Assembly: GCA_964016885.1 (NCBI GenBank)
Contig: OZ024740.1
Span: 221,464,001-221,528,000, forward strand
Source of the DNA: Eledone cirrhosa
Lineage: Eukaryota
Direction: 5' to 3'
Length of the DNA: 64,000 bases
The notes beneath the pieces are model-generated. The model made no database searches and was not told the DNA's origin. It saw only the letters and a program-made list of their open reading frames with translations. The position numbers and the translations under genes were made by a program. Positions 5,022-59,200 of this stretch are shown piece by piece (position 1 is the first letter of the stretch; each line of letters starts with the position of its first letter).

Positions 5022-9616
<4,595 letters not shown>

Positions 9617-12904: not shown

Positions 12905-14019
12905 CACTTAGGATTAGGAAAGCAAGTGATGCTTTCGGAAAGCTAGAAAGGCGACTCTGGGGTCGGCGAGACATGTGCAGGAGGACAAAGGTAAAGGTGT
13001 ACAAGGCATGTGTGCTCTCTTCTCTTCTTTATGCCTGCGAGACCTGGGTCACATATCGATACCACCTTAAGCAATTGGAGCGTTTCCATCAGATGTGTCT
13101 CAGACGGATCCATGGCGTTCACTGGAGGGACCACATCAGTGATGTCGAGATTTTGGAAAGCTCTATGTGTGACAGTATAGAAGCTCTTGTGCTTAGGTAA
13201 CGACTCCGTTGGAGTGGTCACCTTGCCAGGATGAAGGATTCTAGAATACCAAAACAACCCTTTTATGGAGAGTTGGTTAAAGGAAAACGTCCGCCACATA
13301 AACCCCAAAAGAGGTATAAGGACTCCTTGAAAGCCTCTTTAAAAGACGCTAACATCTCTGCTGATACATGGGAAAATATTGCTGTTGATCGTAATAAATG
13401 GAGAAAGAATGTATATGAGGGAAAAGTTGCCTTTGAGGCATCTCGAATCGCATACGAGAATGTAAAGCGGGATGTGAGGAAGGGCATTGCTATTGCACTT
13501 CCAGACGGCGAGGGTCCTCCTATGGTGCTGACATGCAGCGTCTGTGTGAGACTCTGCCTAAGCAAAGCCGGACTCGAAAGTCATCTTCGCAGTCATAAAG
13601 TAAGACTAGTGGTTGACTACCAGGCTGCTGTTGGAGATGCTACTCATCATGCTTGCCATACATGTGGAAGAGAATGTAAATCAGCAGGAGGGCTCAAGCG
13701 ACATGCAAAAGTACACGAACTCCAACCACAGCCGACTATTCCCAGTGAATGTTTTGGTTGCCGACTCTGTGCAAGGCATTTTAGATCATTGGTTGGGCTA
13801 AAAAGCCACATTCGATCGCAGCGCTGTTAGTTGCTATCGTGTGTGTATAGATATGTTTATGTGTGTGCGTGTATGTGTATATATATATGTATATGTATAT
13901 TATTATTGTTGTTGTCGTTATTATTATTGTTGTTGTTATTATTATTATTATTATTGTTATTAATGTATATGTGTGTGTGTATATGTGTGTGTGTGTATAT
14001 ATGTATGTGTATGTGTGTG

Positions 14020-14213: not shown

Positions 14214-17200
14214 GTTTCTCTTTCTCTTAATTTCGAGAACATTTTTGACCGGCCACCTTCCTGGTGGCAAGGTCGTAAAAGAAAAGAAATTGTCATCCCT
14301 TGAATCGCAAGAATGTTTTGCAAATTTTGAAGGTGCCAGCTATCGCAGCCATTTGTAGACTATGAATTAGGGAGCTGCGCTCTCTGTCCGCAAATCCAAG
14401 TTCAGTCATACTTTGGTCGAAGCAGGTTGGTATATAACCCGTAGCTCCAATAATGATGGGTATGAAGCTAAAGGTGCATCTTGGATACTGGATTTGTAAA
14501 CTCCTCATCAATGGTCCGTAGATGTCCTCCTTCTCCTGTATTTTTCTGACAACGTTTACATCAAGTGGGCAGCTGATCTCCACAACAGAACACGTTTTCA
14601 ATGTGTGATCCCAAACAACAATATCAGGCCGGCTGTGCTTTAATTTGGTGGCAGTTTTTATTTTCAGTATTCCTTAGTGCCATCTGTCTCAATATATTCT
14701 TCCTTGTTTGTTGTTAATTTTGTTTTCCGAAGTGCGTTCCAGATGGTTCTAGCTATCCCATCGTGTCTCATGGGAGGTAGTAGCGAGATGACATTCTTTC
14801 GCAGCTGGCAACAATGTGGCTTACATCCTCGATCTTTGTTTTACATAGCCTACATTTATTGTCAGCTGATGGCCCTCCCCTTTTGTGCAGCAGATATTTG
14901 GTAGGGAGTTCTTGTTCCTGTATTGCATAGAGATATTCCTCAAGGTGTGATGTCATAAACCTGTCGGAACTCCATGCCAGGCTTTTTGAGTGGTTTATCC
15001 CCTCTATGGTCTGTGTTTTACGCCTCAAGTATCCATGCACAACTTTTTCTGTAAATTGGTCAATTATTTCATCTTGTTTGAAAATTAAATAGGATCTTCC
15101 GATTTCTCTGGGTGAGAGATTTATATCAAGCTTTATTCCATATCTCTCCTCCAGATCAGTGGCTATTCTAATGATATTTTTTTTCATGCTCATAAACCTG
15201 GGCAAGATGGTTGCCAACCTTTTTCCTCTGTTGAAGATGTTGCTTCAGTGTTACTATCCGGGTCTCATATGATATTAATATGGATTTTAGACCCCGGCCA
15301 CCTTCTTTGCGTGAGAAGTATAGCCTATCCACATCACCATTGATGTTAAAGTTCCCAGTAACACTGAGAAGTTTGCGAGTTCTAACATCCATCTCACTTA
15401 GTTCTTGCAATGACCAGTTCAGCAGGCCAAATATTGGCTTTAGAATTGGCACAGCATAAGTATTGTGGGCAATGTATTTGTTGTACGCTGACAGTTCTGA
15501 TGACCATATTTTCTTTACTCTTCTGAGGTATGCAGTCCTGGTTCTCTCCTTATTTATGGGTCCATCATATCTGACATTCTCATCCTGTCCAAGATATCTC
15601 TAGTTGTCACCTGACTGCAGAGGTTGTATTGTCAGGCCGTTCATCTCTAGATTTCTAGAGGAGGGCACAGCTCTTCCACGTTTTACTGCCAAATATGCAC
15701 ACTTGGACTCATCAAATTTCATTTCGATGTCTGTTGAAAATTGTGTAATGAGGTCCAATTGTTTCTTGATGTCATTGATATTTGGCCCATACAGCTTCAG
15801 GTCATCAACAAAGAAAATATGGGAGATACTTCTGGACCCACTTCTTTGTCCACCTTGTTTCCTGAGTAGGTAAGATAGTGGATTTAGTGAGAGAAAGAAG
15901 AGTAGCACTGACAAGCTATCACCCTGAAAGATGCCCTTCTGGTAATGTATCTTATCAGTCTTAACTTGCTCCTTCTCCCCTCTAAGGATCAAATTGGTGT
16001 ACCAGTTCTTGGTCAGACGTTCAACAGCAGCTACCAGTGGTTGTGGGACTTTGGCTAACTGTAAAGCCTTAACAATCAACCCATGAGGTACACTATCAAA
16101 TGATTTTTGATAGTCCAGCTGCACCACAGTCATGTTTCTGCGATTCTTTGGTGTTTTTTCTTGAATCATTTTATTAGTTAGTAAGTGATCTATGCAACCC
16201 AACACCTTCCTCTTTCCATCAGTTTGCTCAGGTGTTATGATGTTGTTGGTAGCACAGTGATCCTGTAAGAACAGGTTAAGGCACCCAGTAATAATTTATA
16301 CATGGTGTTTTAGCAGGCTATTGGGCGGTAACTTTTAGCAAGGGTGGTTTGGCTATTTTGGGGAATGAGGAGAGTAGTGGCAGTTGATAACCATCTGGGC
16401 AGTTCTTGTGTGCCTTTAATGATTTCTGATAACAGCCGTATGAGATATTGCCGATAGAAAGTGAAATTCTTCAACCAGTATCCTGTAATGAGGTCTGGGC
16501 CTGGTGATTTCCTATTCGACATTTTCTGTAGAGCTGTTTCCAGTATTGACCCATCTATGTCATATTGTTTTGTCTGGACATGTTGGCAGTAGTCCTGTTG
16601 CAGTTCTTTTAGCCAATTAGTTTATCTGTTGAATCCGTCATCCGTTTCCCATACAGATCTCCAGTAGCTCTCAACCTGTTCTTTTGAAGGGGGTGTAATT
16701 TACAGAGATTGAGTTTTTGCCACCGAAGCTGCGATAAACTGATTTAGGATCTCTGGCAAACAATCTATTTAGCACTTGTCGTTTATGTGCTGTTGACTTA
16801 TATTTTAGTCTTTCTGTTGTAGCTGTGAGTTGTTGTTTCAACTGGTGTAATTTGGAGTTTTAAGTTTTAAATTTTGTATCTCCAAATCGTCTCCCCAACT
16901 TTTTTTTAGTTCTTCCTGGTGTCGTGTGAAGTTGCTCTCTATGTTGCATTTCATAACGACTGCGATGTGTGAGATACTTCGTCTCAGGGACAACATTTTG
17001 CTTTTTAAATTTCTCATCCACGCTGGTTCAGGCTTTTTGTTTGTATCTTGATTGCGTGGTTTTAGATGTTTGTTATATGATAGCAATGTGACAGCTGAAA
17101 CATATAACAAAATGTTAAGTGTTTCAAATGTCGTTTCTACACCTTTAGATCGTATAGCCTTCAAATAATTGTCAGCTATTTCGTTCACCGATTCCAATTC

Positions 17201-18381
17201 CAATTTAGTGGGTTCTTTACTGATTCTGGTGTTGTATGGTCTGTCACTCACATTAAGGCTGTGTATCTCTTGAAACATATCGTTCCATGTCACTTGTAAG
17301 GTGTCCACAAGTTTTTGGTGTTCTGTTTGTACAGTAGAATCATAATTTTCAGCCTCGTCGTTGATGTGGTGATAATTACTACTAGAGTTAGTTGACCATT
17401 CTCGCTGTTCTTCAGTGGAAGTGGGATGGATTTCAGTAAAATTGTTGGTGAGCTGTTCACTGTTAGATTTAGCTGGCCATTCTCTTTGTCTGTCAGTGGA
17501 GGTGGGGTGGTTGTCTACAAGGGCTGTATTCAATTCCGTTAGATGTATCAATTTACATCTAATGATACGTTTTGCCTGTTCATCTTTGGAGAAAAGTCTA
17601 ATTCTGGGTGCTTGAAGTTCCATAAAGTTTTTAGCCTTTGCATAAAACCGGACTTTTGGGGTTCAGATTGTTTGTATGCTTCATATAATTCTTTGTTAAG
17701 CTCGTAGCTCCACTGTATACAACGGTTGTAGTTGCGATTTGGTCGAAGGAGACTTGTACGTTTTGCCATGATGAGTTCGTTTATTCACTAATATTTTGTA
17801 TTTATTTTTCAAAATAGTCGATGATCTTCTTTAAAAGTTTCGACAAAGTTCTGTCAGAATCAAATTTAAAGTTATTCACAGCTTGAGTAACATTTCTTTT
17901 CAGTTAGTTTTTAATTCCGCAACTGTGTTTTAAACGTTGTTCTTGAATCGTTTGAATCGAGAACAAAAAAACCGTTCCTTAGTATATTTTTTTATGAATG
18001 TAATATATGATAACGCTGTATTTATATGTTAAAGTTTATGTATCATTCATATAAATAGGTATTCTACAACATATTCACAGTTCAAACACTTATGTTTTTG
18101 TTTCTGAATCGAAAACGTTACTTGCATATTTCTTTATAAATGTAATATAACAAGGTTGCATTTATATGTTAAAGTGTGTTTCGTTCATATATCATAAGTG
18201 TATGTATCATTCATATAAATAGGTGTTTTACAACACACTTACAGTTCAAACACTTATGTAGAATTATGTAATCTTACCGCCTAATGTAGCTCAATTCTTT
18301 CCAATATATGGTATGTTGCCTTCATGTAAGCCGTAATTACACACGCCCGATTATCGGACATTGACCATAACGGTCGCCATT
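14214..18381 (-). mobile_element. Second R4/Dong-like non-LTR retrotransposon, near full length, decayed
   Basis: W..ELN..LY..Y...GFMQRLK..W...HPE; KSPGPD; YRPIAC; LDYQKSFDSVPH; GIFQGDSLS; FVDDLKLY; CRLC..HIVASC; VEISCP..PIIIGATG; exact (TATG)n flanks at 14144-14213 and 18382-18419. Confidence 0.92.
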
Positions 18382-25876: not shown

Positions 25877-26057
25877 TTAATAATATATAATGCTATGGCT
25901 TGCAACATTTATACAAGTTGTGTACCGCTTTTTTTTTCTCTGCTTCACAACCGACTGATCCTTGTGGTCCGCACATCACATGTCGATTAACCCCATATTC
26001 TAATATATGTATATACATATATAATAATGTAATCTGAGTTTTTCGAATATTAATAAT

Positions 26058-26242
26058 TGTTTCTACTTTAGGCACAAGGCCAGCAATTACCCAGCACATT
26101 CCTGGTACTTTATTTTATCGACCCCGTAAGGATGAAAGGCAAAGTTAACCTCGGCGGGATTTGAACTCAGACTGTAAAGGGACGTAACTATGCTAGAAAA
26201 AAAGGCGTCCAACCCTCTACCGATACTGCCAATTAACCGCTC
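26058..26242 (-). mobile_element. SINE insertion with an 18-bp TSD
   Basis: TTTTCGAATATTAATAAT at 26040-26057 and 26243-26260. Confidence 0.9.
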
Positions 26243-26360
26243 TTTTCGAATATTAATAATAACATTCGATTCGTTTGCAATTATGCAAACATGCCTCAAT
26301 TTTATAGCTATGTCAGTAGAATGAACACTTCATTCTTGCTCTTGTGTTGGCATGCCAACA

Positions 26361-26410
26361 GAACTGCAGACACTAATGTTTCTGGGTATCACCCTTCATC
26401 AGTACAGTTC
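26361..26410 (-). ncRNA. Type I hammerhead ribozyme
   Basis: GAACUGUA-CUGAUGA-A GGG UGAUA CCC A-GAA-ACA UUAG UGU-C^-UGCAGUUC: 8-bp stem I, intact core, GUC cleavage triplet. Confidence 0.85.
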
Positions 26411-26756
26411 ACTGTTCACCTGCCAAACTGTCAGAGCTAGTGAAAATATATGCTATTTTCAAAAATACACAATAACTGATCGGCCTGATTTGCATATTAG
26501 CAGACTGGCTGATCAGTCAGATCTGCATATTAGCAGATCCACTGATCAGCCAGATTTGCATATCAGCTGACTGGCCGGTCAGTTTCCTGTACACGAGCGA
26601 TAAATGGCCGGATTTGCCAAATTCAAAGATCTGCTAATATGCAGATCTGACTGATCACCCAGTCTGCTAACAAGCAAATCAGGCCGATCAATCACTGTGT
26701 ATTTTTGAAAATAGCATATATTTTCACTAGCTCTGACAGTTTGGCAGGTGAACAGT

Positions 26757-26806
26757 GATCTGTACTGATGAAGGGTGATACCCAGAAACATGAGTATCTG
26801 CAGTTC
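26757..26806 (+). ncRNA. Type I hammerhead ribozyme, inverted-arm copy (stem III mismatch, AUC triplet)
   Basis: CTGTA-CTGATGA-AGGGTGATACCCA-GAAACATGAGTATC^-TGCAG. Confidence 0.7.
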
Positions 26807-26968
26807 TGTTGGCATGCCAACATAAGAGCAAGAATGAAGTATTCATTCTACTGACATGGCTTTATAATTGATGCTTGTTCGTATAGTTGCAAACAAATCG
26901 AATGTTATTATTAATATTCGAAAAACTCAGATTACATTTATTTTATTCAGCCATGTAGAGCGAAATTT

Positions 26969-27034
<66 letters not shown>

Positions 27035-27818
27035 TATGTATATGTATATATATATGGAGAGAGAGTTTGATATTTACACACATACATTCACATATGCACA
27101 CAAACACACACACACATACACATATATATTCGGATTCAATATATTTTCATTCATTGACGTATAATAAAGTCTTAGAATCATAGTCTTCTTTCACATACTA
27201 AATAAAATAACGATATACATTACTCTGCTGGCATGTAATTTGTGAGGCAAAAAAAGAATTTTTACAAATTCACTGGACCTGCTAGAAATAACAGCAAAAT
27301 GTCCCCGAATTGGCATCCTAGTGTCCAAAATAAGAAAATAATGCATTTTATAACACACACACTTAGATACTTATACTAAGGTAGGGTGGTTACAGCCGAA
27401 ATGTCTTCGATAATATAGCTGTTCATTCAGGGCTGGCCTAGGGCTAAACACCGACAGTAATATCAAAATCTACTACAGTACGTAGATGGTTTTTTCGCAT
27501 GTACGATGCTATTTACTTATGGCATCGCTTGATAAAATAGATTTGTTTGTGTAAAGCATTAAATCAATCTTGATGTAGTAGCTGTCTTGCAATTTATTTC
27601 TCTTTCTTGACTCTTAACTCCTGATGGAGTCGTAGAAACACCGTCTTGGCACATGACGTGTTTTGGGCATTTAAAACCTAGTGGTGGAAGCGGGACCCAT
27701 CCATCTCCAGGTCAGAACACAGCCGATTTCTTTCAGAGAGAGAGAGTGTGTGTGTGTGAGAGAGAAATAGTGAGGGAGAGAGAGTGTGTGGTAGCGATTG
27801 TAAGAAAGAGTGAAAGAG

Positions 27819-32923: not shown

Positions 32924-32984
<61 letters not shown>

Positions 32985-33139
32985 CGCTCTACATGGCTGA
33001 ATACAATAAATATAATCTGAGTTTTTCGAATATTAATAATAACATTCGATTCGTTTGCAATTATGCAAACAAGCCTCATTTCAAAGCTATGTCAGTAGAA
33101 TGAACTCTTCATTCTTGCTCTTGTGTTGGTATGTAAACA

Positions 33140-33189
33140 GAACTGCAGACACTAATGTTTCTGGGTATCACCCTTCATCAGTACAGTTC
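33140..33189 (-). ncRNA. Type I hammerhead ribozyme
   Basis: Identical to 26361-26410. Confidence 0.85.
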
Positions 33190-33441
33190 ACTGTTCACCT
33201 GCCAACTGTCAGAGCTAGTGAAAATATATACTATTTTCTAAAATATACTGTGACTGATCGGCCTGATTTGCATATTAGCAGACTGGTTTATCAGTCAGAT
33301 CTGCATATTAGCAGATCCACTGATCAGCCAGATTTGCATATCAGCAGACTGGCCATTGAAGGGTTTATTCTACTGGCATGGCTTTAAAAATGAGGTTTGT
33401 TTGCATAATTGCAAACGAATCGAATGCTATTATTAATATTC

Positions 33442-33661
33442 ACCTGCCAAGGTTAACTTTGCCTTTCATCCTAACGGGGTCGATAAAATAAAGTACCAGT
33501 AATGCACTGGGTAATTGCTGGCCTTGTGCCAAAAGTAGAAACAATTATTAATATTCAAATCCCGCCGAGGTTAACTTTGTCTGTCATCCTTACGGGGTTG
33601 ATAAAATAAAGTACCAGTAATACACTGGGTAATTGCTGGCCTTATGCCAAAAGTAGAAACA
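33442..33661 (+). mobile_element. Two 5'-truncated SINE copies in tandem
   Basis: Each is bounded by ATTATT(A/C)ATATTC repeats (33429, 33544, 33662). Confidence 0.85.
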
Positions 33662-33709
33662 ATTATTCATATTCGAAACACTCAGATTACATTTATATAT
33701 ATATATATA

Positions 33710-41238: not shown

Positions 41239-44200
41239 GATTTCATTTATTGGCCACAAGGGCCGACATATAGGGGACAATACAAAAGACTGGGACAGTG
41301 GGGTTTTACAGAAAAATCGAGTAAACAATATGAATAAACAAAGTAACAATAACAAAGTAACAGTAAAGTAACAATAAAATTACAAGAAAAAAATTCCCCA
41401 ATAGGGGGGATGACCACCTAGGGTTCGCTCAGGTACCCCACCAGTCCTGAACGACCCGACGCTTCGAGAGCACCCTGGAAGGGCACCCCTCTCCTCTTCA
41501 AATTTACCTACCTACAGCCGCATGACCAGAGTAGGCCCACTCACACGGGCCATTCTCGCCACATTCACCCACCTTTCAGCAAATGTACTGGGGGGGGGGG
41601 GGCAGCACTTCTCTCTCCACCCTCACCTTCCTTTCCAAGTGAAACTTGAAAAAGTTGATGAGGGATTGGCCGAAGAGAAAAGTGTCTGTCTTCAGTCCTT
41701 TCAACCTTGTCCACCATACAGCCTCTTTCGCTACTGCCACCAGACAGAGGAAAATTGCCTGCCCTTCCTGGCCAAAAGAAGGCGGCGGGTCTATCTTCAC
41801 TATGGACTCGGCCGATAGCCGGATCCGTTCTACACGCGACAACAGCTGTTCAACATAACTCCACAAGTCAGTAATGCACGGACACTGGACAAGTGCGTGC
41901 AGAACGGTTTCGTCGCTCTGCGCGCATCTCAGGCAGGTCCGTCTGACAGCATTTCCGTGTCTGTAGAGTTTATCTCGAACCGGCAGTGCCCCCACGGTAG
42001 CACTGCCAAGCGAGGGATTTTTGGAAATTATCCATCGTCCCCGGCTCGAAAGTCCTCCGGTACAGACTGGTTAGTTCGACTTCGTTGACTCCCAGAGTCT
42101 CTTCGAGTGTGTCGTAGCACTTGCCCACCACTAATCCTCTATAGAACTCGAGAGTGGAAGTTCCACTGACCGCATTGCCCGCCTGGCATAGGGCAGTGAG
42201 TGCCTGGCAACATTCCAGATGCCAGTCACCCAGTCTCGGTCACTTCTTGACCCAGGACTGCAACTCAGTCAAAGAAACGAGCTGCGGAAAGGCCCGTCTG
42301 ACAAACGGCGACCACACCTGTTCACCGTTTATGCAGAATATCTGGAGATGCCGCAGCCTCAGCGCGTGCCTGCGCATCATTAGCCACGGCATGCCCATCC
42401 CTCCACGTAGAGGGTGCTGGCAGCAGATGGACTGCCTCACCAGCGGAACCTGACCCCTCCACAAGAATTTGAAGAGGAGCCGCTCCAAGATGGCGAGGCA
42501 CGAACGGGGGCAAGGGACGAGTCAGACGGTAGTAGATGACGGACGCGATGTACGCGTTCGCCACCTCCGCCCGACCTTTCAGTGATAGCTTCAACCCAGC
42601 CCATTTCTGGGTGAGACTGACTACCCTGCCCGTCACCTCGTCCCAATTCTCATCCACCTGGAGGTCTGGCCCGAACCAAACCCCTAGCAACTTTACCGGT
42701 CCGTCCGTCCAGCGCCTAACGACGTTGTTGGACGGCATGGACTTGCCTCTCCAGGTGCCGAGTTGCAAGCCTACTGACTTTTCCGGGTTAAGTTTTGCTC
42801 CCGTCAACCTTTCATATTCCTCCAATAAGTTGCCGACCACCTCGATTTCTGAGGTGTCCGACACCATCACGGTGATGTCCGCATAAGCCGACACAGCCTT
42901 TCCGCGTCACGGTTCGAGCGGGATGCCCTGCAACAGCTCCAGCTTCCGCAGTAAAGGCTCGAGAGTCAATACGTACAGAAGGGAGGAGAGAGGGCACCTT
43001 TGACGGACCGATCGGGAGACCTGAAACGGTTCCGAGAGGTGGCCATTAATTTTGACCATCGACAGGTGCCGCTGTGCATTGCAGAGATCCAGCTTCTGAA
43101 GACGGGGCCGAAGCCAGCCGCCTTGAGGACAGCCTCCAGGTACCGATGGTCGACCCTATCGAATGCTTTCGATTGATGTAAATTGATCAGAGCCCAACCG
43201 AAGCCAGGTTTACACCCAACCCTCTCTATGATGTATCGCATCAGGTGGAGGTTGTCGTGTATGAACCTGGTTGGGATTGTGCAAGTTTGCGCCTCCCCAA
43301 CCAAATCCCCGACGACAAGCGCCAACCTCTTCGCTAACACCCTGGCCAAAATCTTAAACTCTGTGTTGAGCAGAGTTATGGGCCTGAACTTGTCTAATGT
43401 GTCCCTCTTGTTCTCGTCTTTCCTTATCAGCGTCACTACGCCCCGGCTCACAGAACTGGGAATACTCCCGTTTTGCTTCTAGTTGCAGTAAAAGGCTTCG
43501 AGGAGATTGGAGAACAAGTCTGGCATATTTACGTAAAGCTCGTAGGGCAGACCATCCAAACCGGGTGACTTGCGCCTCATGCAGCCTACAAGGGCATCCT
43601 GAATCTCGGCTGAAGTAATTGGCCTTTCGCAGCGCCCAGCGTCAGCCGTCGAGAGTTGCGGCAAGCCATCAAGGTAGGGACTGAAGTCCGCCACTTCCCC
43701 CGAACAACCGAGCAAAATGTTGGCGAAAGGCCTCACACATCCTCTTGGAATCGCTCAGCTCGAGCCTGTCTCGGTCCGTCAAAGACCGAATCGTGGTTTT
43801 ATTACCACACTGCGCCTCTGCCATGCGGGCCCATCGAACAGCTTTGGTTCCCTCGTTTCTCAGAGCACGCGCCTTAGCTCTGACAATGCAACCTTCGTGT
43901 TTCGCATTGAAGAAATGGTCTAATGCCATTCTCGCCGCTAGCACGTTAGTTGCAATGCCACTACCAATAGCCTCGTCTAACTTATCTACCAACTCTCCCG
44001 CCTTTCTATTTTTCTCTAATGCTACTTCTTTGCTAAACTCTATCGACATTACTCTAATCTCTCTTTTGAGAGCCCCCCACCATCTATTGTTGTCGACTCC
44101 CCCTGTCAACTTTTTCTTAACTAAATTGTTGACCTGGTCCCTGTAAGCCTTACGTGCCGGAAATGACATGTTTAGCTTCCAGTAACCAGGTCCTAACCTA

Positions 44201-46157
44201 CGCGTCTTATCTAGGTCGACCATACAGATCACAAACTTGTGATCTGAATAGGCGACCGTTTCAAAACGTGGACAGCTTACACTATTTCTGTCTATTTTCC
44301 TAATGAATATCCTGTCTATATACGATCTAGATGACCCTATGCGGTTAGCCCAGGTCCACACTGGCGCATTAGGGAAATCTAGTCGGTACCTGTCAGACAG
44401 TTGGAACTGGCTGATCAGGTTCTTGAGGCTTTTGCACCCCCCCCCCCGCTCCTATCGGATATTCCCACACAGTCCCAACGTGCGTCTAAGATGCCGTTCC
44501 AGTCCTCCGCTAACAGTAAAGGGCGAGACGTACCCAGGAAGGCTTCCAGGCGTCTAAAGAAGTCCGGCCGTCCTTCCCCAGTAGGAGCATAGACGGCCAC
44601 CAGTCTAAAGGCACCACCTTCATTATTGTTCACGTCCAGGACCACCAACTTCCCGTCTCGGTCCCGGAAGATCGACCTTACCTCGAGGTCCAGGCCTTTC
44701 CTAAACAGCATTGCCACCCCGCCTCCCATTCCCGGCTGGCTAACAGATGCAAAGATCTGATAGTCGTCGAAAATGGGGGTTAGTGCGCGCGTGTCGGAAA
44801 TCCTGGTCTCGCTGACTGCAATTACATCCATTTCTATAGACCTTAGGTTGTTGAGCAGGTGACCCTACTTCCAGGACGATCCCAGGCCTCGAACATTTAA
44901 ACATCCTAATCTTAATACGGCCATGTTGGCAGGTTAAACAGAGAAAGAGAGGAAGGTTTACTTACCTTCCGGGCTCTTGTGAAGGTCGGGTTGTTCGACC
45001 TCCATAGTTAGTGGGGTTTCTTTTGGGAACCCCTTTAAAAGTCTTGAAGTGGGTTTTACGTTCGGGGTTCCCACGTCCCGAGGAAAGCTGTGTCGTATTT
45101 CTTTGAATATGTCGAGCGACATTCGCACCAGAACCAAATCTTCCGGCACGCGAAATGTGCTCGATTTAAACATTTCCCCCTCTTTTTGTATATTTTCACT
45201 TCGTGTTACGAGGGCCATCAGTTCCTTGTTGGCCCTCCTGACGAGCACGAAGTTTTGTATGTTTTGTTGGTGTGATTTTATTTGTTTGCGTGGCTGTGGT
45301 GGTGATGGTTTTGGTGGTGTTGTTTCGGTTGTATCTGTGTTTGTTGTGAGTGCGATGTCTGTGTTTTCAGATGTTTGTGTGTATATTTTTTCTTGCGTCT
45401 GTTTCGGTTGTTTGCGTTTGGGGGATTCTGGTGATGGTGATGGTGGTGTTGATGTTAGTGTTATTGGAGAGATGTTTGCGTGGGTGGTGTCTGCGTTTTT
45501 TATTGTGGGTGCTTTTGTGCTTTGTTGTGTTTTTTTTTTCTTTTTGTGTTTCCTTTTTTGTATTTTGGGAGATTTTGAATTTCCCTCATCTTCACTACTG
45601 GTAGATGAGGGGTCTGTGTCTGTAAATGTGTTTGTATGTATGTTTAAGGTTTTATTGGTGCGTGTATTTTTTTTTGGGGGGGGGGGGGATTTGACAGCTT
45701 TCCTCGTTTCCCCCCTGGGTGGTCAATGTTGGTGGTGGTCTTTCTATTGGTGTTGTTGGTGGTTTTGCCGGTGCAGGTGTTGGTTGTGGTCCTCGCCCCG
45801 GCGTCGGCAGCAGTGGAGCCTTTCGACCCCTTGCCTCTTTGAGCAGTTGAGGGCAGAAGGCTCGCAAATGGTTTTTTCCCCCACAAACAAAACACCGCGG
45901 CCTTTTGCCTTCGGTCATAATGTGAATGACAGTCCCATTCTGAAGCCATGTTTTTTTTTTCTTCGTAAATTTTTTTAACATGTAAAAAAAACTTCAAATA
46001 TTTGGGCCAAAAGGCCCAAATATTATACTTTCCCTTTCACGGGGCAAAGTCTAAGGGCTTATATCCCTTACACAACAAGAAATATTTAACAACAAATAAT
46101 TTAAACAGGCAAATAAAGCGACTTACTGTGAGCGAGCAAAATACGTCCGCTTAGACC
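41239..46157 (-). mobile_element. L1/Tx1-clade LINE in (AAT)n; ORF1 partly deleted, ORF2 disrupted
   Basis: ORF1 knuckle CFVCGGKNHLRAFC; ORF2 from 44924 with APE (LNVRGL, SET, SDH), RT (KSPGLDGLP, FRPITLLN, KAFDRV, YADD) and C-terminal CLRC..ETVLHALVQC; AATAAA + (ATT)n tail; (AAT)n also at the 5' end. Confidence 0.92.
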
Positions 46158-52247: not shown

Positions 52248-55200
52248 AAAACACAGAAAACAAATACAATAACACCCACACCACAAACACGAGCCGAAAA
52301 TGAACCCCTCCCCTCGAATACGGAAGACGACCCCCTTTAGTCGTCAGACGAGGGGGGGGGGGACACTTTCATAAAGTTAAAAGAAATAAAAGAAAACACA
52401 CCACAGGAACACAAATACAAATAACCCCTCCCCAATACATAACACAGACATCAATACAAAAAACACACACAACAACAGCAAACAAAAAACATCACAGAAA
52501 AAGAAAAATATGCTTACACGTACATAAACACAATAAACAAAAAACTGTTAAACCTTATTTATAATAACAACTTAATAAAAACCGAAGGTTCGAATTTCGC
52601 GCAAGCAACGGGGCTTCCCCATCTAAAAATGATAAAAGCCCCAATGGACATTTACAAAACGTTAAAAGACACTTTTAAAGAGGACGTGGGGCCCCCTGCG
52701 TCAGACCCATTAACCGTGTCCTCCTATTCCAGACACTCACACAACGTCAAACACCCCAACCCCACCACACACTGATGCCCCTACACTTCCACAAACCACC
52801 ATCCCACCCAACAACCCATCCCCCACCCACATGGAAATTGTGCGGCCCGGTCCCCGGGACGCAGAGAGGTAAGTGCCTTTTCTCTTTACCACCAACATGG
52901 CTGTGTTGAGAGTAGGTTGTCTAAATGCGCGTGGCCTGGGCTCACCTTGGAAGCAAGCAATGCTTCTAAATGACCTCAGGTCACGATGTATATATGTGAT
53001 AGTTATTTGCGAGGCCCGGATCAGAAGCGTGCGACAGCTGGCCCCCACCTTTGATGACTTTGAGATGCACGCATCTCTCTGTCAGCCCTGAGGTGGGGTG
53101 GGGTTGTCGTTCTGCTGCAAAAACATCTGGGTCTCGCTATACAGACGGTGCACTTGGACCCGGAGGGTCGACTTGTGGTTCTGGACCTTGGCAGTGGTGA
53201 AGGCGGAGCTTTTAGGCTGGTCGCCGTCTACGGCCATTTTGGGTCAACGTGGCCGCACTTCTTCCATCGTCTGGAAACTTTTCTAGGGACGTCTTGCTTT
53301 TAGTGGGGGACTGAAATGGTATCCTAGATGCACGTTGGGACTATGTAGGGGCATGTCCTGATAGAGGGGGTTGTAACAGCCTCAAGGGGTTAATCGGCCG
53401 AATTGACCTGGCCGATAGAAATCGACTAGATTTTCCGACTGTGCCAACCTGGACTTAGAGAAACCACAGCAGTAAATCTAGATCGTATCTAAATAGGTTC
53501 TTAGTTAGAAATAAGGATAGGGACTTTTTAAGTTGTCCAGAAATGCTCATGGTTGGCTATTCAGACCACAAGTTAGAGACCTCCATGGTCAACCTTGATA
53601 GAACGCATAGACAGGGATCCGGTTACTGGAAGCTCAACTTGTCCTTAGCGGCAAGTAAAGCTTACAGGAACCGGCTAGTACTTTAGTTAAGGAGCGGTTG
53701 ACGGGCGCCATCGTTAACAGCAGGAGGTGGGGCTCTCTCAAAAGAGAGATTAGAGTAGCTTCAATAGGAGTTAGTAAGGAGTTAGCTTCAGATAGAAATA
53801 GGAAGGAAAGGGAGTTGGTAGATAGGGTAGAAGAGGCAATTAGAAGCGGCGACGTAGCCAGAGTGCTAGCGTCAAGAACGGCCTTGGGCCAGTTCTTCGA
53901 CGCGAAACACGAAGGCTGCATCGTCCGAAGCAAAATACGTGCTCTGGGAAACGAGGGGAACAAAGCTGTTAGCGGGGCCCGCTAAAAGGGGGTTTATATC
54001 CACTATCCGGTCTTTGCGAGACCAGGATGGACGGGTGATCCTTGAACCTAAGCAGATGTGCGAGGCTTTTCAAAAGCACATTGCCAGATTGTTCGGAAGG
54101 CGCGGGGATCCGGTTGGGAAGTGGACTTCGATCCATACCTCGACGGCCAGCTGCGTCTTTCGGACGAGGAGGCGAAGTCCTGCGAGAGGCCGATTTCAGC
54201 TGCTGAAATAGGGGACGTGCTGAGCCAATGCGGCAGACGCAAATCTCCGGGCCTCCATGGTCTTCCATACGAACTGTATTTAAGTATGCCGGACTTGTTC
54301 TTCGATTTCCTCGAAGCGGTCTACTGCACCTGGCAACAGAACGGGAGAATTCCCTGTTCTGTGACCAAGGGCGTAGTCTCGCTAGTGAGGAAGGACGAGA
54401 ACAAGGGGGATGAAATAAGTAATTTTAGGCCCATAACTCTGCTAAATGCAGAGTTAAAGATTTTGGCCAAGGTGTTAGCAAAGAGGTTGGCGCATGTCGT
54501 GGGCAACCTGGTGGGAGATGCGCAGACATGCGCCATCCCGTCCAGGTCCATTCACGACAACCTCCATCTCATGCGATACATCATAGAGAGGGTTGGGAAC
54601 GAGCCCGGCTTTGGTGGGGCCCTGATCACCTTGGATCAATCTAAGGCGTTCGATAGGGTCGACCATCGTTACCTGGGTACGGTGCTAGTGGCGGCAGATT
54701 TCGGACACGTTTTTAGGGGCTGGATCACTGCCATGCACAGCAGCCGCATCTGCTCTAGGGTCAAGGTGAACGGCTACCTCTCGGAGCCGTTCAAAATCAC
54801 GCGGTCCATCCGACAGGGATGCCCTCTCTCCCCCCTTCTGTATGTATGGCCCTAGAGCCACTGCTGCAGAAGTTGGAGTTGTTGCAGGGCATCCCTTTGG
54901 ACCCTAGATTGCGGAAAGCGGTGTCGGTCTACGCCGGTGACGTGACAGTAATGGTGTCAACGGCCTCGGAAATCGGGGCGATCGGCACCTTACTGGAGGA
55001 GTACGAAACGTTTACAGGGGCTAAGCTGAAGCGGGACAAGTCGATCGGTTTGCAACTCAGCACGTGGAGGGGCAAACCGATGGTATCCGACGGCGTCGTG
55101 GGGCGCTGGACGGAGGGCCCGGTAAAATTGCTCGGGGTCTGGTTCGGACCAGACCTCCAGGTGGAGAAGAACTGGGGTGAGGTAACGAACAGGGTGTTTA

Positions 55201-56290
55201 CACTGACCCAGAAGTGGGCCAAGTGCAAACTGTCCCTGAAAGGTCGGGCGGAGGTGGCGAACACTTATATAGCGTCCGTCATCTACTACCGCCTGACTGC
55301 CGTGCCTTGCCCAAGGGAAACGCTCGCCAAAATGGAGCGCGCACTCTTCCAATTCCTTTGGAAGAAGCGGACTCCTTTGGTGAGGAGATCCATCTGCTGC
55401 CAACACCCTTCGAAAGGAGGGCTGGGGATGCCGTGGCTGATGATGCGTAAACACGCATTAAGGCTACGGCACCTCCATGTATTCCTCACCGGTCAACCGG
55501 TGTGGGCCCCGTTTGTGAGGCGAGCCTTTCCCAGACTCGCCTCGATCACCGAGCTGCAGTCCTGGGTCAAGCAAAGACCGAGAAAACTGGGCGCCTGGCA
55601 CACCGAGTATGCCCAGGCGCTCACGGGTCCTCTGGCAGGTGGACCCGGCTATCGGTGGAGACTCCACCTCGTCATTCTATAGAGGGCTGGTGGTTAGTAG
55701 GTGCGACAACGCCCTCCCACAAGCCCTAGGCATGGAAGAAGACGAACTGGCCAACCTGGTCGGTAGGACATTTGGCCCGGGACCTATGGACAACTTCCAG
55801 AGGTACCTGGCCTGGCAGTGTTACCGAGGGGCGCTGCCCGTTCGAGAAAAGCTTTACAGACACGGGCGCCCGGGTAGGGACCCCTCGAAAAAATCTGTCC
55901 CAGATGCGTGCGCGACGAGGAAACCGTTGCGCACGCATTGGTACATTGCTCGGGCGTTGCCGATCTGTGTGGCTATGTCGAACGACTGCTATCACGGGTG
56001 GGACCAATCCGGTTGACCACTGAGTCCATTGTAACGATCAAGCCACCTCCCCCAGTGAAAGAGGTTGTATGGTGGACGCGTCTGAAAGGACTGAGGTCAG
56101 ACACCTTTCTCTCTGGCCAATAACTGGTCCGTTTCTTCCGATAACATTTCGGAAGAAGGATAAGGATGGAGAGAGAGGTGCTGCACCCCAGCCGTTTTTA
56201 TGAAAGATGGGTGAAAGTGGCGAGAATGGCCCCTGTGAATGGGCCTTCACTCTACATCAGACTAGGTGAGAAAGCTGAAATATAAAAAAA
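52248..56290 (+). mobile_element. L1/Tx1-clade LINE, 5'-truncated in ORF1, ORF2 disrupted
   Basis: ORF2 ATG at 52897 (MAVLRVGCLNARGL); SDH; RT NFRPITLLN, LDQSKAFDRV, RQGCPLSP, YAGD; C-terminal CxxC..H..C. Confidence 0.9.
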
Positions 56291-56299
56291 AAGATGAAA

Positions 56300-59200
56300 G
56301 ATAAAAAAACTGAACCAATTGTTTGAAAAAACATATCATTTTGTAGATTAACCCCCAAGCTGAATTGTCAGCTGGGTGGTAATCCCATTTTTAGCCCCTT
56401 TAGGGGCGAACATTTAATTTAAATATTGTTTTAAAAAATCAAATTTTGCCAACTATAAAACATGAATAGCTCGGAAAGAACGCTAGATTACGTCGACAGA
56501 GAGAAGAGAGGTAGAGAGGCAATATTAACGTTATATCTGCTTCTGCTACTATGGACGTCGCCATCGATACGACTGTCTACAAAGAGAAAAAAATAATATT
56601 ACCAATTGAAGATTTTAAAATTTCTACCGTCGAAGCGGAGAAATATAACACACAGGAAAACACAGGAATTAAACCTATTAACATACATACGCATGAAAAA
56701 GACAACAACAACAACTCCATAGATACATCTACACATAAAGTTTCACCTCGTCAAGAAATTGCGATTTCCAACACCGAGGCTATGAACGATAACAACAACA
56801 ACAACAACAACAGCAACACCACAAAAAAAATGTCTTTCGCTGAAACAGTGAACAAAAAAACAGATTTTATAAATCTTGACATCTCCAATGCAAGAGATAT
56901 GCTCCAGCAAGTAACTTTCGAAGACAAGGGTGTGGGTAGAATTAACTCACCCCTCGAAATAAAAGAAGAGACATTTCGAAGGACAGTGACCTTCAGAACT
57001 GTCACCAACACAACGAGAAAGCCAATATTTGTTAGTCAAGGAGACATAGAAGCCACCTTGAAGGAGACTCTAGCAAATATTGACTTTCTTCGACGAGGAA
57101 AACAGTACGGAAGTGTTTCCGTACGGTTTAAAAGCGAGGTACTCGCCCAAAAACCTTCTGTGACACCAATGGTGTCAAAAGCATTCACATTTTTCCCTAC
57201 GTACATGGGAAAAAGGACACAAAAAATAAAAATAAAAATATACCACCAAACATTAACATCTGGTGGATCTTGGCTGGCTTCGTGGAGCCAGAGACTGATG
57301 CTATTCTTTCAATACGAAAGTCTATTAAACAAAGGTGGGCGGATACTGAGTTGGGGATTCTGATGCAAATGAGGCCGGAGAGAATCTCCAAAATACCGAA
57401 AAAGTCGTCATTGACGACAAAAACAAATTAAACATTTCGGTAGAGGGGCGTAAACTTCATTGCTTTCGCTGTGGTAGCATAGCACACCTAAAAGCCTCCT
57501 GTCCTTCACAAACACACCACAAAAACATCATTAAAAAAAACACTATTACCAACACCAACACCAAAACAACCACCACCACAAGTACAACAACAGACGAAAC
57601 GAGCAAACACACCAAAACAAACAGCCACTCAACCAACAACAACAGAAAAAACACTGACAACACCCCTGAAGAACACAGCCCCACCCCATCCCACTCTATC
57701 AAACACTACCACAAACACACACACCGAAACACCACCATCACACAATGTACCCCGACCCAACACTGCTGACGATGATTATTCATCAACAGATGAGGCTGCT
57801 TCTTCTTTAAGTGAAGAAGAAGGAGAGCCTCGGAAATCTAAAAAAAGAAAAAAAAAGAGACACCACAAAACCCCCAAAACTCCAATCACCAACACCAACA
57901 CACAACCACAGACACAAACAACAACACAAACAACACCACAGTCAAACATCCTCCTACCAGCAAAACCAACACCAATACCACTCCAAACACAAGCACCCAC
58001 CATAAAAAGAAAACTCCCGGACGAACAACAAACTAAAACAACACAACAAAAATACAAACAACAATACGCATACATCAACACAAGCAACAAGAGTTTGATA
58101 GAGGTCATCTCCCAAAACCCCAAGTTGGAGACGGAGGGCAAAACTTTCGTCAAAGCAGAATCGTCTCCACACCTAAAACTAATAAGGGTTTCGATAGCAA
58201 CCTCTGAGAAATTGAAAGAACAGTTTTCGCAGGATGTTGGCAACCCCTGTCATAAACCTATTAACCGCGTCTTATTAAAATGTTTCCGCACCTCACCCAT
58301 CACCCCCACCAGAACTGAAATGGAGATTGAACAACCCGATCTCCAGAAAACGAAAAGGTAAGTGCACCTTTTCGTCCTTTTCGCCAACTCTTCTCCACCA
58401 ACATGGCTGACTTACGAGCTGGAAGTGTGAATGTGCGTGGCCTAGGGATGCCCTGGAAACAGGGCCAACTTTTAAACGACCTGAGGTCACACGGTATGGA
58501 TGTAATAGCCATCACTGAGTTCAGGATCCAGAACAAGCAGCATCTAACCCCCATCTTCAATGACTTTGAGATCTACGCATCTCTCTGTCAGCCGGGAGGT
58601 GGAGGGGGAGTGATTGTCATGTTTCAGATAAACCTGGATCTCGAAGTACAGCAAGTACACTTGGACCCGGAGGGTAGACTGGTGGTCCTAGATGGGAACA
58701 GTCTTGGAGGTGAAGCCTTCAGACTGGTGGCCGTTTATGCCCCGACCGGGCAATCACAATCGCGGCCAGACTTCTTTAAGCGTCTAGAGTTTTTTCTGGG
58801 AACGTCTCGCTCCTTGCTTTTAGTGGTGGACTGAAATGGTATCCTAGATGCACGATGGGACTATGTAGGATCATGTCCCAGTAGAGGGGGTGCAGCAGCC
58901 TCAAAACTTTAATCGGCCAATTCCAACTGGCCGATAGGTATCGACTGGATTTCCCGACTGCGCCACAGTGGACGTGGGCAAACCGCAGCGGGACATCTAG
59001 ATCGTATTTAGATAGGTTCTTCATTAGGGAAAGGGACAAGATGTTAAGCTGTCCACGAATGCACATGGTTGCCTATTCAGATCACAAATTAGTCGTCTGC
59101 ATAGTGAACCGTGATAGAACACTTAGACAGGGACCCGGATACTGGAAGCTGAACGTGTCGTTGCCGGGACGTAAAGCTTACAGTGAACGGATAAGTAGAC

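What the first reader, a model, noticed from the sequence alone, without database searches (positions are those of the whole stretch)
26026..26975. Two-armed foldback with a complete type I hammerhead on each strand, recurring at 32981
The minus-strand HHR (26361-26410) has an 8-bp stem I, intact CUGAUGA/GAAA and a GUC site. It is letter-identical to 33140-33189 although flanking positions differ between the copies, which suggests constraint or recent spread. The two arms differ from each other at scattered sites. The two loci invert at different points, so the foldback formed independently at least twice.
Basis: seen in the sequence. Interest (0 to 1): 0.75.

Follow-up and report, generated by a model that had tools for sequence, protein, structure and literature searches.

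The report
Penelope-pasted retrozyme, back-to-back insertion
This hairpin is two back-to-back pieces of a 440-base, protein-less repeat present in thousands of copies; each repeat unit carries one hammerhead ribozyme motif and a sequence resembling the host's small-nuclear-RNA promoters, and the layout of its insertions indicates that Penelope-type jumping genes likely pasted it in, so the mirror image is likely an insertion scar and not a two-strand ribozyme device.

Summary
The foldback is real (arms 277/297 identical). The minus-strand hammerhead is intact and identical to 33140-33189. The plus-strand copy is damaged (AUC, stem III pair broken), and the second locus has only one hammerhead. 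The element is a dispersed 440-nt unit (1,524 exact hits of a 25-mer in the 3.0-Gb genome). 38 of 59 loci are head-to-head pairs with variable junctions. In 22 of 22 with two canonical ends, one arm stops at site A and the other about 35 nt further at site B, mostly in (TA)n. Autonomous Penelope-like elements of this genome show the same layout. Copies decay neutrally (core 2.7% vs rest 3.1%), so the identical 50-mer shows no constraint; stems do covary against a diverged sister family. Each unit holds an snRNA-type promoter layout about 50 nt before the cut site. Verdict: a non-LTR retrozyme, likely mobilised by Penelope double target-priming. Cleavage, transcription, circles and the partner element are untested or not found. 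The scan noted sister families of this class earlier, in this and other genomes.

The parts
26024..26627 (-). Left arm of insertion 1: unit positions 182 through one cut site to site A (143-148), interrupted by a SINE; outer end in TA-rich DNA
26628..26975 (+). Right arm of insertion 1: unit positions 270 through the cut site to site B (about 175), i.e. with the ~35-nt tail (about 26941-26975), followed by (TA)n at 26974-27055
26361..26410 (-). Intact type I hammerhead motif; predicted cut between 26369 and 26368; self-complementary stem III could allow a dimer form
   Evidence: cleavage untested
26757..26806 (+). Damaged hammerhead copy (AUC triplet, stem III pair broken, stem I mismatch)
26444..26495 (-). 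snRNA-type promoter layout: octamer 26488-26495, U1/U2-like element 26471-26481, TATA-like box 26444-26451; predicted start near 26419-26423
   Evidence: transcription untested
26476..26582 (.). 3.2 copies of a 33-bp palindromic repeat carrying octamer-like motifs; part of the unit
26058..26242 (-). Secondary SINE insertion with a B-box-like motif (26157-26168), between two copies of an 18-nt target duplication (26040-26057, 26243-26260)
   Evidence: this repeat has more than a dozen matches in the window
32981..33355 (-). Insertion 2, long arm: unit 232 to site B (168), with intact hammerhead 33140-33189 and promoter layout 33222-33273; (TA)n at 32924-32982
33357..33696 (+). Insertion 2, short arm: unit 37 to site A (143), no hammerhead, with two 5'-truncated SINEs (33443-33541, 33554-33659) at the same site as in insertion 1

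Best explanation
The window holds two independent insertions of a 440-nt non-coding repeat with one hammerhead motif per unit (a non-LTR retrozyme), each laid down as two head-to-head arms with fixed, different outer ends in (TA)n, likely by a Penelope-like element (PLE) working in trans. Shown: unit, copy number, ends, neutral decay, promoter-like layout. Inferred steps: (1) the internal snRNA-type promoter, or host read-through, makes multi-unit RNA; (2) the hammerhead, probably as a dimer, cuts it to monomers that may circularise; (3) a PLE GIY-YIG/RT complex nicks both strands of a TA repeat and primes one strand at internal site A and the other at site B about 35 nt downstream, usually on the same or a clonal RNA; (4) the two 5'-truncated cDNAs are joined head-to-head, mostly at 0-4 nt overlaps; (5) copies then decay, and a SINE often lands at unit position 109.
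For: Unit of 440 nt, tandem junctions in many copies, longest sense ATG frame 42 aa. 1,524 exact 25-mer hits vs 0 control. 38/59 loci two-armed; 22/22 with two canonical ends are A+B (binomial p 2e-7); (TA)4 at 48/58 canonical ends vs 9% background. 11/11 A+B in a third set, which was picked by a tail pattern and so under-samples A+A. Seven two-armed insertions of coding RT+GIY-YIG elements in this genome, read by eye, show the same one-arm tail in (TA)n. PLEs are described with an inverted 5'-truncated copy and a 30-40 bp tail on one end (10.1101/2021.04.23.441226; PMC3846280), and the tail lies between two internal RT start sites (PMC11167929). Opposite arms share rare variants at 0.0033/site vs 0.0005 between loci; column 42 agrees in 17/23 pairs vs 48% expected. 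A diverged sister family keeps the octamer, TATA, ribozyme core and tail motif, while 4-5 of 11 stem pairs change on both sides. Promoter: U1/U2 matrix score 17.3, reached by 0/300 shuffles and 0/123 genomic windows; octamer at -76 and TATA at -31, as in three U6 genes.
Against: No coding PLE sharing sequence with the unit was found in 70 GIY-YIG loci, nor among 30 tail-pattern loci; 150 of 10,595 GIY-YIG candidates were scored. The active hammerhead fold is 6.2 kcal/mol above the predicted minimum, in which the core is paired; only 1 of 9 Xenopus retrozyme dimers cleaved in vitro (10.64898/2026.07.22.740005). No array above 807 nt among 120 segments, and only 8 segments hold two hammerheads. 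The distal element found at about -260 of host snRNA genes is absent (score 7.4 vs null 90th percentile 8.7). A U6-type Pol III transcript would stop at the T run near site B and could not template the promoter part that the copies carry. In vitro the Anolis PLE showed no difference in start site between strands (PMC11167929). 6 of 23 arm pairs disagree at column 42, and arm similarity could also come from later gene conversion.
Confidence: 0.8

Rival explanations
1. The arms are 5'-truncated pseudo-LTR stumps of an autonomous PLE not yet found; there is no independent retrozyme or RNA circle.
For: Same architecture as coding PLEs here. Retrozymes resemble PLE pseudo-LTRs in Xenopus (10.64898/2026.07.22.740005). 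Only a small part of the PLE candidates was examined.
Against: Arms run upstream into the previous 440-nt unit, up to 807 nt. No protein similarity of the unit to the PLE ORFs (best E 0.55). The coding PLEs sampled mostly carry different, minimal hammerheads. The unit has its own promoter layout, shared with a sister family.
Confidence: 0.1
2. PLE-mobilised, but the second arm is made by fold-back (self-priming) copying of the first cDNA, or from an antisense template, not by a second priming on RNA.
For: Arms share rare variants. Self-priming was proposed for head-to-head Penelope junctions (PMC3846280, passages).
Against: In several loci, including window locus 1, L006 and L007, neither arm is contained in the other, so each holds sequence the other lacks. 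Most junctions show short overlaps, not palindromes. Later central deletions could hide nesting.
Confidence: 0.07
3. A DNA foldback/MITE-like transposon, or a locus selected to give self-cleaving RNA on both strands.
For: Long inverted arms; TA-rich flanks.
Against: The two ends are never alike and the centres vary. 19/59 loci are single-orientation. The second hammerhead is damaged or absent in both window loci, and cores decay neutrally.
Confidence: 0.03

Closest known systems
Metazoan non-LTR retrozymes (Cervera and de la Pena 2020, PMC7229834, parts 2-3 of 6 and passages read; Li, Clavereau and Pollet 2026, 10.64898/2026.07.22.740005, parts 1-3 of 5 read)
   Same: Non-coding tandem unit of 150-450 bp with one type I hammerhead; thousands of copies; predicted highly self-paired circle; coexists with PLEs; mismatch at the base of stem II, as in axolotl HHR_Amex2.
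   Different: Here the copies seen are dispersed and under two units long, head-to-head, with one-arm tails in (TA)n. 'Inverted' occurs 0 times in the first paper; in the second 'inverted' occurs only in a reference and 'tail' and 'promoter' 0 times. Circular RNA and cleavage were shown there, not here.
Insertion units of endonuclease-bearing Penelope-like elements (Craig et al. 2021, 10.1101/2021.04.23.441226, passages; Arkhipova et al. 2013, PMC3846280, passages; Frangieh et al. 2024, PMC11167929, parts 1-2 of 4)
   Same: Partial tandems, inverted 5'-truncated copy, 30-40 bp tail on one end, AT-rich or (TA)n targets, hammerhead upstream of the ends.
   Different: No ORF; a longer-stemmed hammerhead than the minimal ones in the coding PLEs sampled here; no sequence match to any sampled coding PLE.
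Newt satellite 2 (Coats, Zhang and Epstein 1994; not held; seen only as cited in PMC2220036)
   Same: Hammerhead repeat with an internal snRNA-type promoter.
   Different: Newt transcription was shown and assigned to Pol II; here the layout has both U1/U2-like and U6-like elements and is only predicted.

Membership tests
Type I hammerhead ribozyme | Core CUGANGA, GAAA and NUH around three stems, stem I open | tested here: met
   Minus-strand copies at 26361-26410 and 33140-33189; the plus-strand copy fails the stem III pair
Type I hammerhead ribozyme | G10.1-C11.1 pair at the base of stem II (recalled consensus) | tested here: not met
   A.A in this family, U.U in the sister family; a U.U is described for an axolotl ribozyme that cleaves (PMC7229834)
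Type I hammerhead ribozyme | Match to an Rfam hammerhead model | tested here: not met
   No hit at gathering score or up to E=10
Type I hammerhead ribozyme | Stem covariation between lineages | tested here: met
   Against two sister units, 4 and 5 of 11 pairs change on both sides; 0 and 1 pairs are lost, the latter at the seventh stem I pair. Only 2-3 lineages. Within the family only one stem I A-U/G-U polymorphism
Type I hammerhead ribozyme | Self-cleavage | not testable with these tools
   Folding model favours an inactive fold by 6.2 kcal/mol; stem III self-duplex -8.8 kcal/mol allows a dimer
Non-LTR retrozyme | Non-coding tandem unit of 150-450 bp, one type I hammerhead per unit | tested here: met
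   440 nt; 8 segments with two hammerheads; longest ATG frame 42 aa sense, 83 aa antisense
Non-LTR retrozyme | Highly self-paired monomer | tested here: met
   Circular fold 70% paired, z -10.2 vs 60 shuffles, inflated by the palindromic repeats
Non-LTR retrozyme | Expressed linear and circular monomer RNA | not testable with these tools
   No run on record as RNA was available
Non-LTR retrozyme | Target duplication longer than 4 bp when present | tested here: inconclusive
   Ends lie in (TA)n, where a duplication cannot be read
Non-autonomous Penelope-like element | Inverted 5'-truncated copy and 30-40 bp tail on one end | tested here: met
   38/59 two-armed; 22/22 A+B
Non-autonomous Penelope-like element | AT-rich / (TA)n target | tested here: met
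   48/58 ends vs 217/2340 background windows
Non-autonomous Penelope-like element | Terminal homology to a coding PLE | tested here: inconclusive
   None in 70 GIY-YIG loci, a small sample of 10,595 candidates; one mixed insertion, L221
MITE / foldback DNA transposon | Two equal terminal inverted repeats and fixed internal structure | tested here: not met
   Ends always differ; junctions scatter over the unit
Viroid-like RNA with ribozymes in both polarities | A ribozyme in each polarity of the unit | tested here: not met
   The descriptor scan of both window strands finds the motif in one polarity of the unit only

The most novel reading that the evidence does not exclude
A self-transcribing retrozyme has captured an snRNA promoter and a conserved tail signal. 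A PLE dimer uses that signal to start one DNA strand at site A and the other at site B of one RNA, a strict one-site-per-strand rule (33 of 33 here) not seen in the published in vitro assay. The mixed insertion L221 (PLE family F1 arm ending at its A site, retrozyme tail ending near B) records a template switch and names F1 as the helper.
Probability: 0.3. Interest if true: 0.7.

Novelty: new member of a known kind. Interest (0 to 1): 0.42.

Why it matters
How animal retrozymes are transcribed and copied is proposed but not shown in the papers read. This family carries the Penelope insertion signature base for base, a tail motif conserved with a diverged sister family, and a promoter layout matching host snRNA genes, so helper enzyme, start sites and promoter can each be tested. 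The window's hairpin itself is one decayed copy among thousands.

Tried and rejected
Locus 2 as a reversed, deleted copy of locus 1: rejected, since its tail arm holds unit 232-269, which the tail arm of locus 1 lacks, and the SINE truncations and duplications differ. L1-style twin priming without overlap: rejected, arm starts do not cluster at the other arm's end. A-to-I editing scars: none, A>G 83 vs T>C 79 on the sense strand. Distal snRNA element: not above null. Rfam miRNA hits: only hairpin shape, below thresholds. Expression: no RNA holder listed; the three laid runs are contigs of one sample, and their depth was not used as copy number. Ten further U6 hits gave no usable upstream sequence with my start motif, so the U6 comparison rests on 3 promoters. 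Helper search by family sampling, tail motif and blastx found none. A shared GTGT/ACAC-type tail hairpin, seen by eye in several coding PLE tails, is not in this unit; its tail folds weakly. Excess of 5' ends just after the cut site (14/106 in positions 1-25, p 0.003) is kept as weak: loci were query-selected and a strong stem lies there. Scripts failed and those in 51 and 58 stopped part-way; they were rerun. L031 and L053 were dropped as duplicates of L020 and L052 before counts. Literature searches gave no paper on a cephalopod retrozyme; subscription papers, Repbase and bioRxiv supplements were not searchable and may hold this family.

Full report
Observation. The region 26243-26924 is an inverted repeat with arms 277/297 identical. 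The minus strand at 26361-26410 carries a type I hammerhead motif: 8-bp stem I, CUGAUGA, A.A mismatch then 4-bp stem II, GAAA, short stem III and GUC. A descriptor scan of both window strands found only this and the identical copy at 33140-33189, and none of that quality in 20 shuffles. Rfam gave no match. The plus-strand copy is damaged (AUC, broken stem III pair), and the second arm of locus 2 starts past the cut site. Bases 26058-26242 are a SINE between 18-nt duplications.

The family. The genome is 3.0 Gb. It is probably a cephalopod; this rests on my recall of the SINE and on earlier scan notes, and was not tested. Two searches, one with the ribozyme region and one with the spacer, gave 1,639 and 1,526 candidates, of which 30 loci each were fetched. 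They define a 440-nt unit, numbered here from the cut site. An exact 25-mer has 1,524 hits and 0 control hits; 11 of 36 spacer-selected copies keep it, which suggests roughly 5,000 hammerheads. Most mapped segments are about 90-99% identical to the majority sequence.

Architecture. After dropping two duplicates, 38 of 59 loci are head-to-head, 19 single-orientation and 2 other. Outer ends fall at site A (137-151) or site B (160-183). All 22 loci with two canonical ends are A+B; 16 have at least one non-canonical end. (TA)4 flanks 48 of 58 canonical ends against 9% background, and junctions scatter, mostly with 0-4 nt overlap. A third set chosen by a tail pattern gave 11 A+B and no A+A or B+B among 22 family loci; that set under-samples A+A. 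The genome has many RT + C-terminal GIY-YIG elements, and the seven two-armed ones displayed show the same one-arm tail in (TA)n, read by eye. This is the published PLE signature (10.1101/2021.04.23.441226; PMC3846280), and the tail is the stretch between two internal RT start sites (PMC11167929). Opposite arms share rare variants 6.7 times more often than copies at different loci (26/7886 vs 655/1,333,453 sites), although overall divergence is the same (6.6%). In several loci neither arm is contained in the other, which favours two primings on RNA over fold-back copying.

Constraint. In spacer-selected copies the 13 core positions mutate at 2.7%, the hammerhead at 3.4% and the rest at 3.1%. 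The lower core rate (0.8%) in ribozyme-selected copies is ascertainment. 49 of 83 complete hammerheads pass my intactness rule. Identical 50-mers occur in 28 of 630 pairs, as elsewhere in the unit. Selection is visible between lineages: a pattern for octamer-TATA-core excluding this family has 19,629 hits vs 4 controls. These sister units (430-500 nt) keep octamer, TATA, TGGCAG and core, change 4-5 of 11 stem pairs on both sides, and share the tail region (0/500 shuffles for one unit, 18/500 for the other). Seven of the 19 sister loci mapped show both ends, all A+B by eye.

Promoter. From 9 U1/U2 promoters of this genome I built a two-block matrix. The best site in the unit scores 17.3 (real promoters, left out in turn, 5-20), reached by 0/300 shuffles, 0/123 window segments and 1/300 column-shuffled matrices. 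It predicts a start near unit 386-388. Three U6 promoters have an octamer at -76 to -78 and TATA at about -30; the unit has them at -76 and -31 from position 390. That pattern occurs twice in the window, both in this element, against 0.02 expected. The distal element is absent. Newt satellite 2 has such a promoter (cited in PMC2220036; original not held). Unresolved: a Pol III transcript would end at the T run at site B and could not carry the promoter, yet 77 of 120 segments cross the cut site and many include the promoter, so templates were read-through multimers or ligated circles.

Limits. No helper with shared sequence was found in 70 PLE loci. One locus, L221, joins a PLE family F1 arm ending at its A site to a short F1 piece plus the retrozyme tail with no TA between; it is single and noisy. 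The active fold is 6.2 kcal/mol above the minimum, and the self-complementary stem III suggests dimer cleavage, as for axolotl retrozymes (PMC7229834). Eight of nine Xenopus dimers did not cleave. Neither window locus has two hammerheads on one strand, so neither can release a monomer by itself.

Verdict. A new member of the non-LTR retrozymes, working like a non-autonomous PLE (0.8); a circular intermediate is about even odds. The foldback is a by-product of insertion. Earlier scan notes describe sister families in the same terms and are not independent support; my U1/U2 promoter test preceded reading them, and they prompted the sister-family search and the editing test.

Noticed in passing
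window 26058-26242, 33443-33659; unit position 109 in other loci: The same SINE sits at unit position 109, in sense orientation, in 14 of 59 loci, with different 5' truncations: an insertion hotspot, likely from pairing of its ATT-type tail with the target.
   Followed up: partly
L221:1476-1944 (G000:C2 near 128,045,900): Mixed head-to-head insertion: PLE family F1 3' end on one arm, a short F1 piece plus this retrozyme's tail on the other, without TA between; possible template switch.
   Followed up: partly
L171-L200: A more abundant sister retrozyme (430-500 nt, at least 19,629 motif hits) forms longer arrays and carries an internal TA-rich tract.
   Followed up: partly
L092, L093, L096, L100, L102, L110, L142, L151: Coding PLE families with copies about 97% identical in protein carry variant minimal hammerheads (UUGANAA core, CCGG loop); L096 and L105 are head-to-head pairs of ORF fragments.
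   Followed up: no
L111-L139 upstream regions: U1, U2 and U6 genes share a TTACCTCCCTT-like element at about -260; U1/U2 have a TCAGT element at -57 plus a TATA-like box, U6 an octamer at -76.
   Followed up: partly
window 5510-8119, 14768-17662, 41576-45722, 54052-58834: Fragmented LINE-type reverse transcriptase frames (RVT_1, zf-RVT); two of the regions are 74-78% inverted copies of each other.
   Followed up: no
window 13201-13830: Open frame of 209 aa with C2H2 zinc-finger matches.
   Followed up: no
L006, L030, L100, L103, L202, L215, L229: Retrozyme and PLE insertions of different families stack in the same (TA)n tracts.
   Followed up: no
antisense of the 440-nt unit: A stop-free frame of 134 codons in the doubled unit; no match to the PLE ORFs at hand.
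   Followed up: partly
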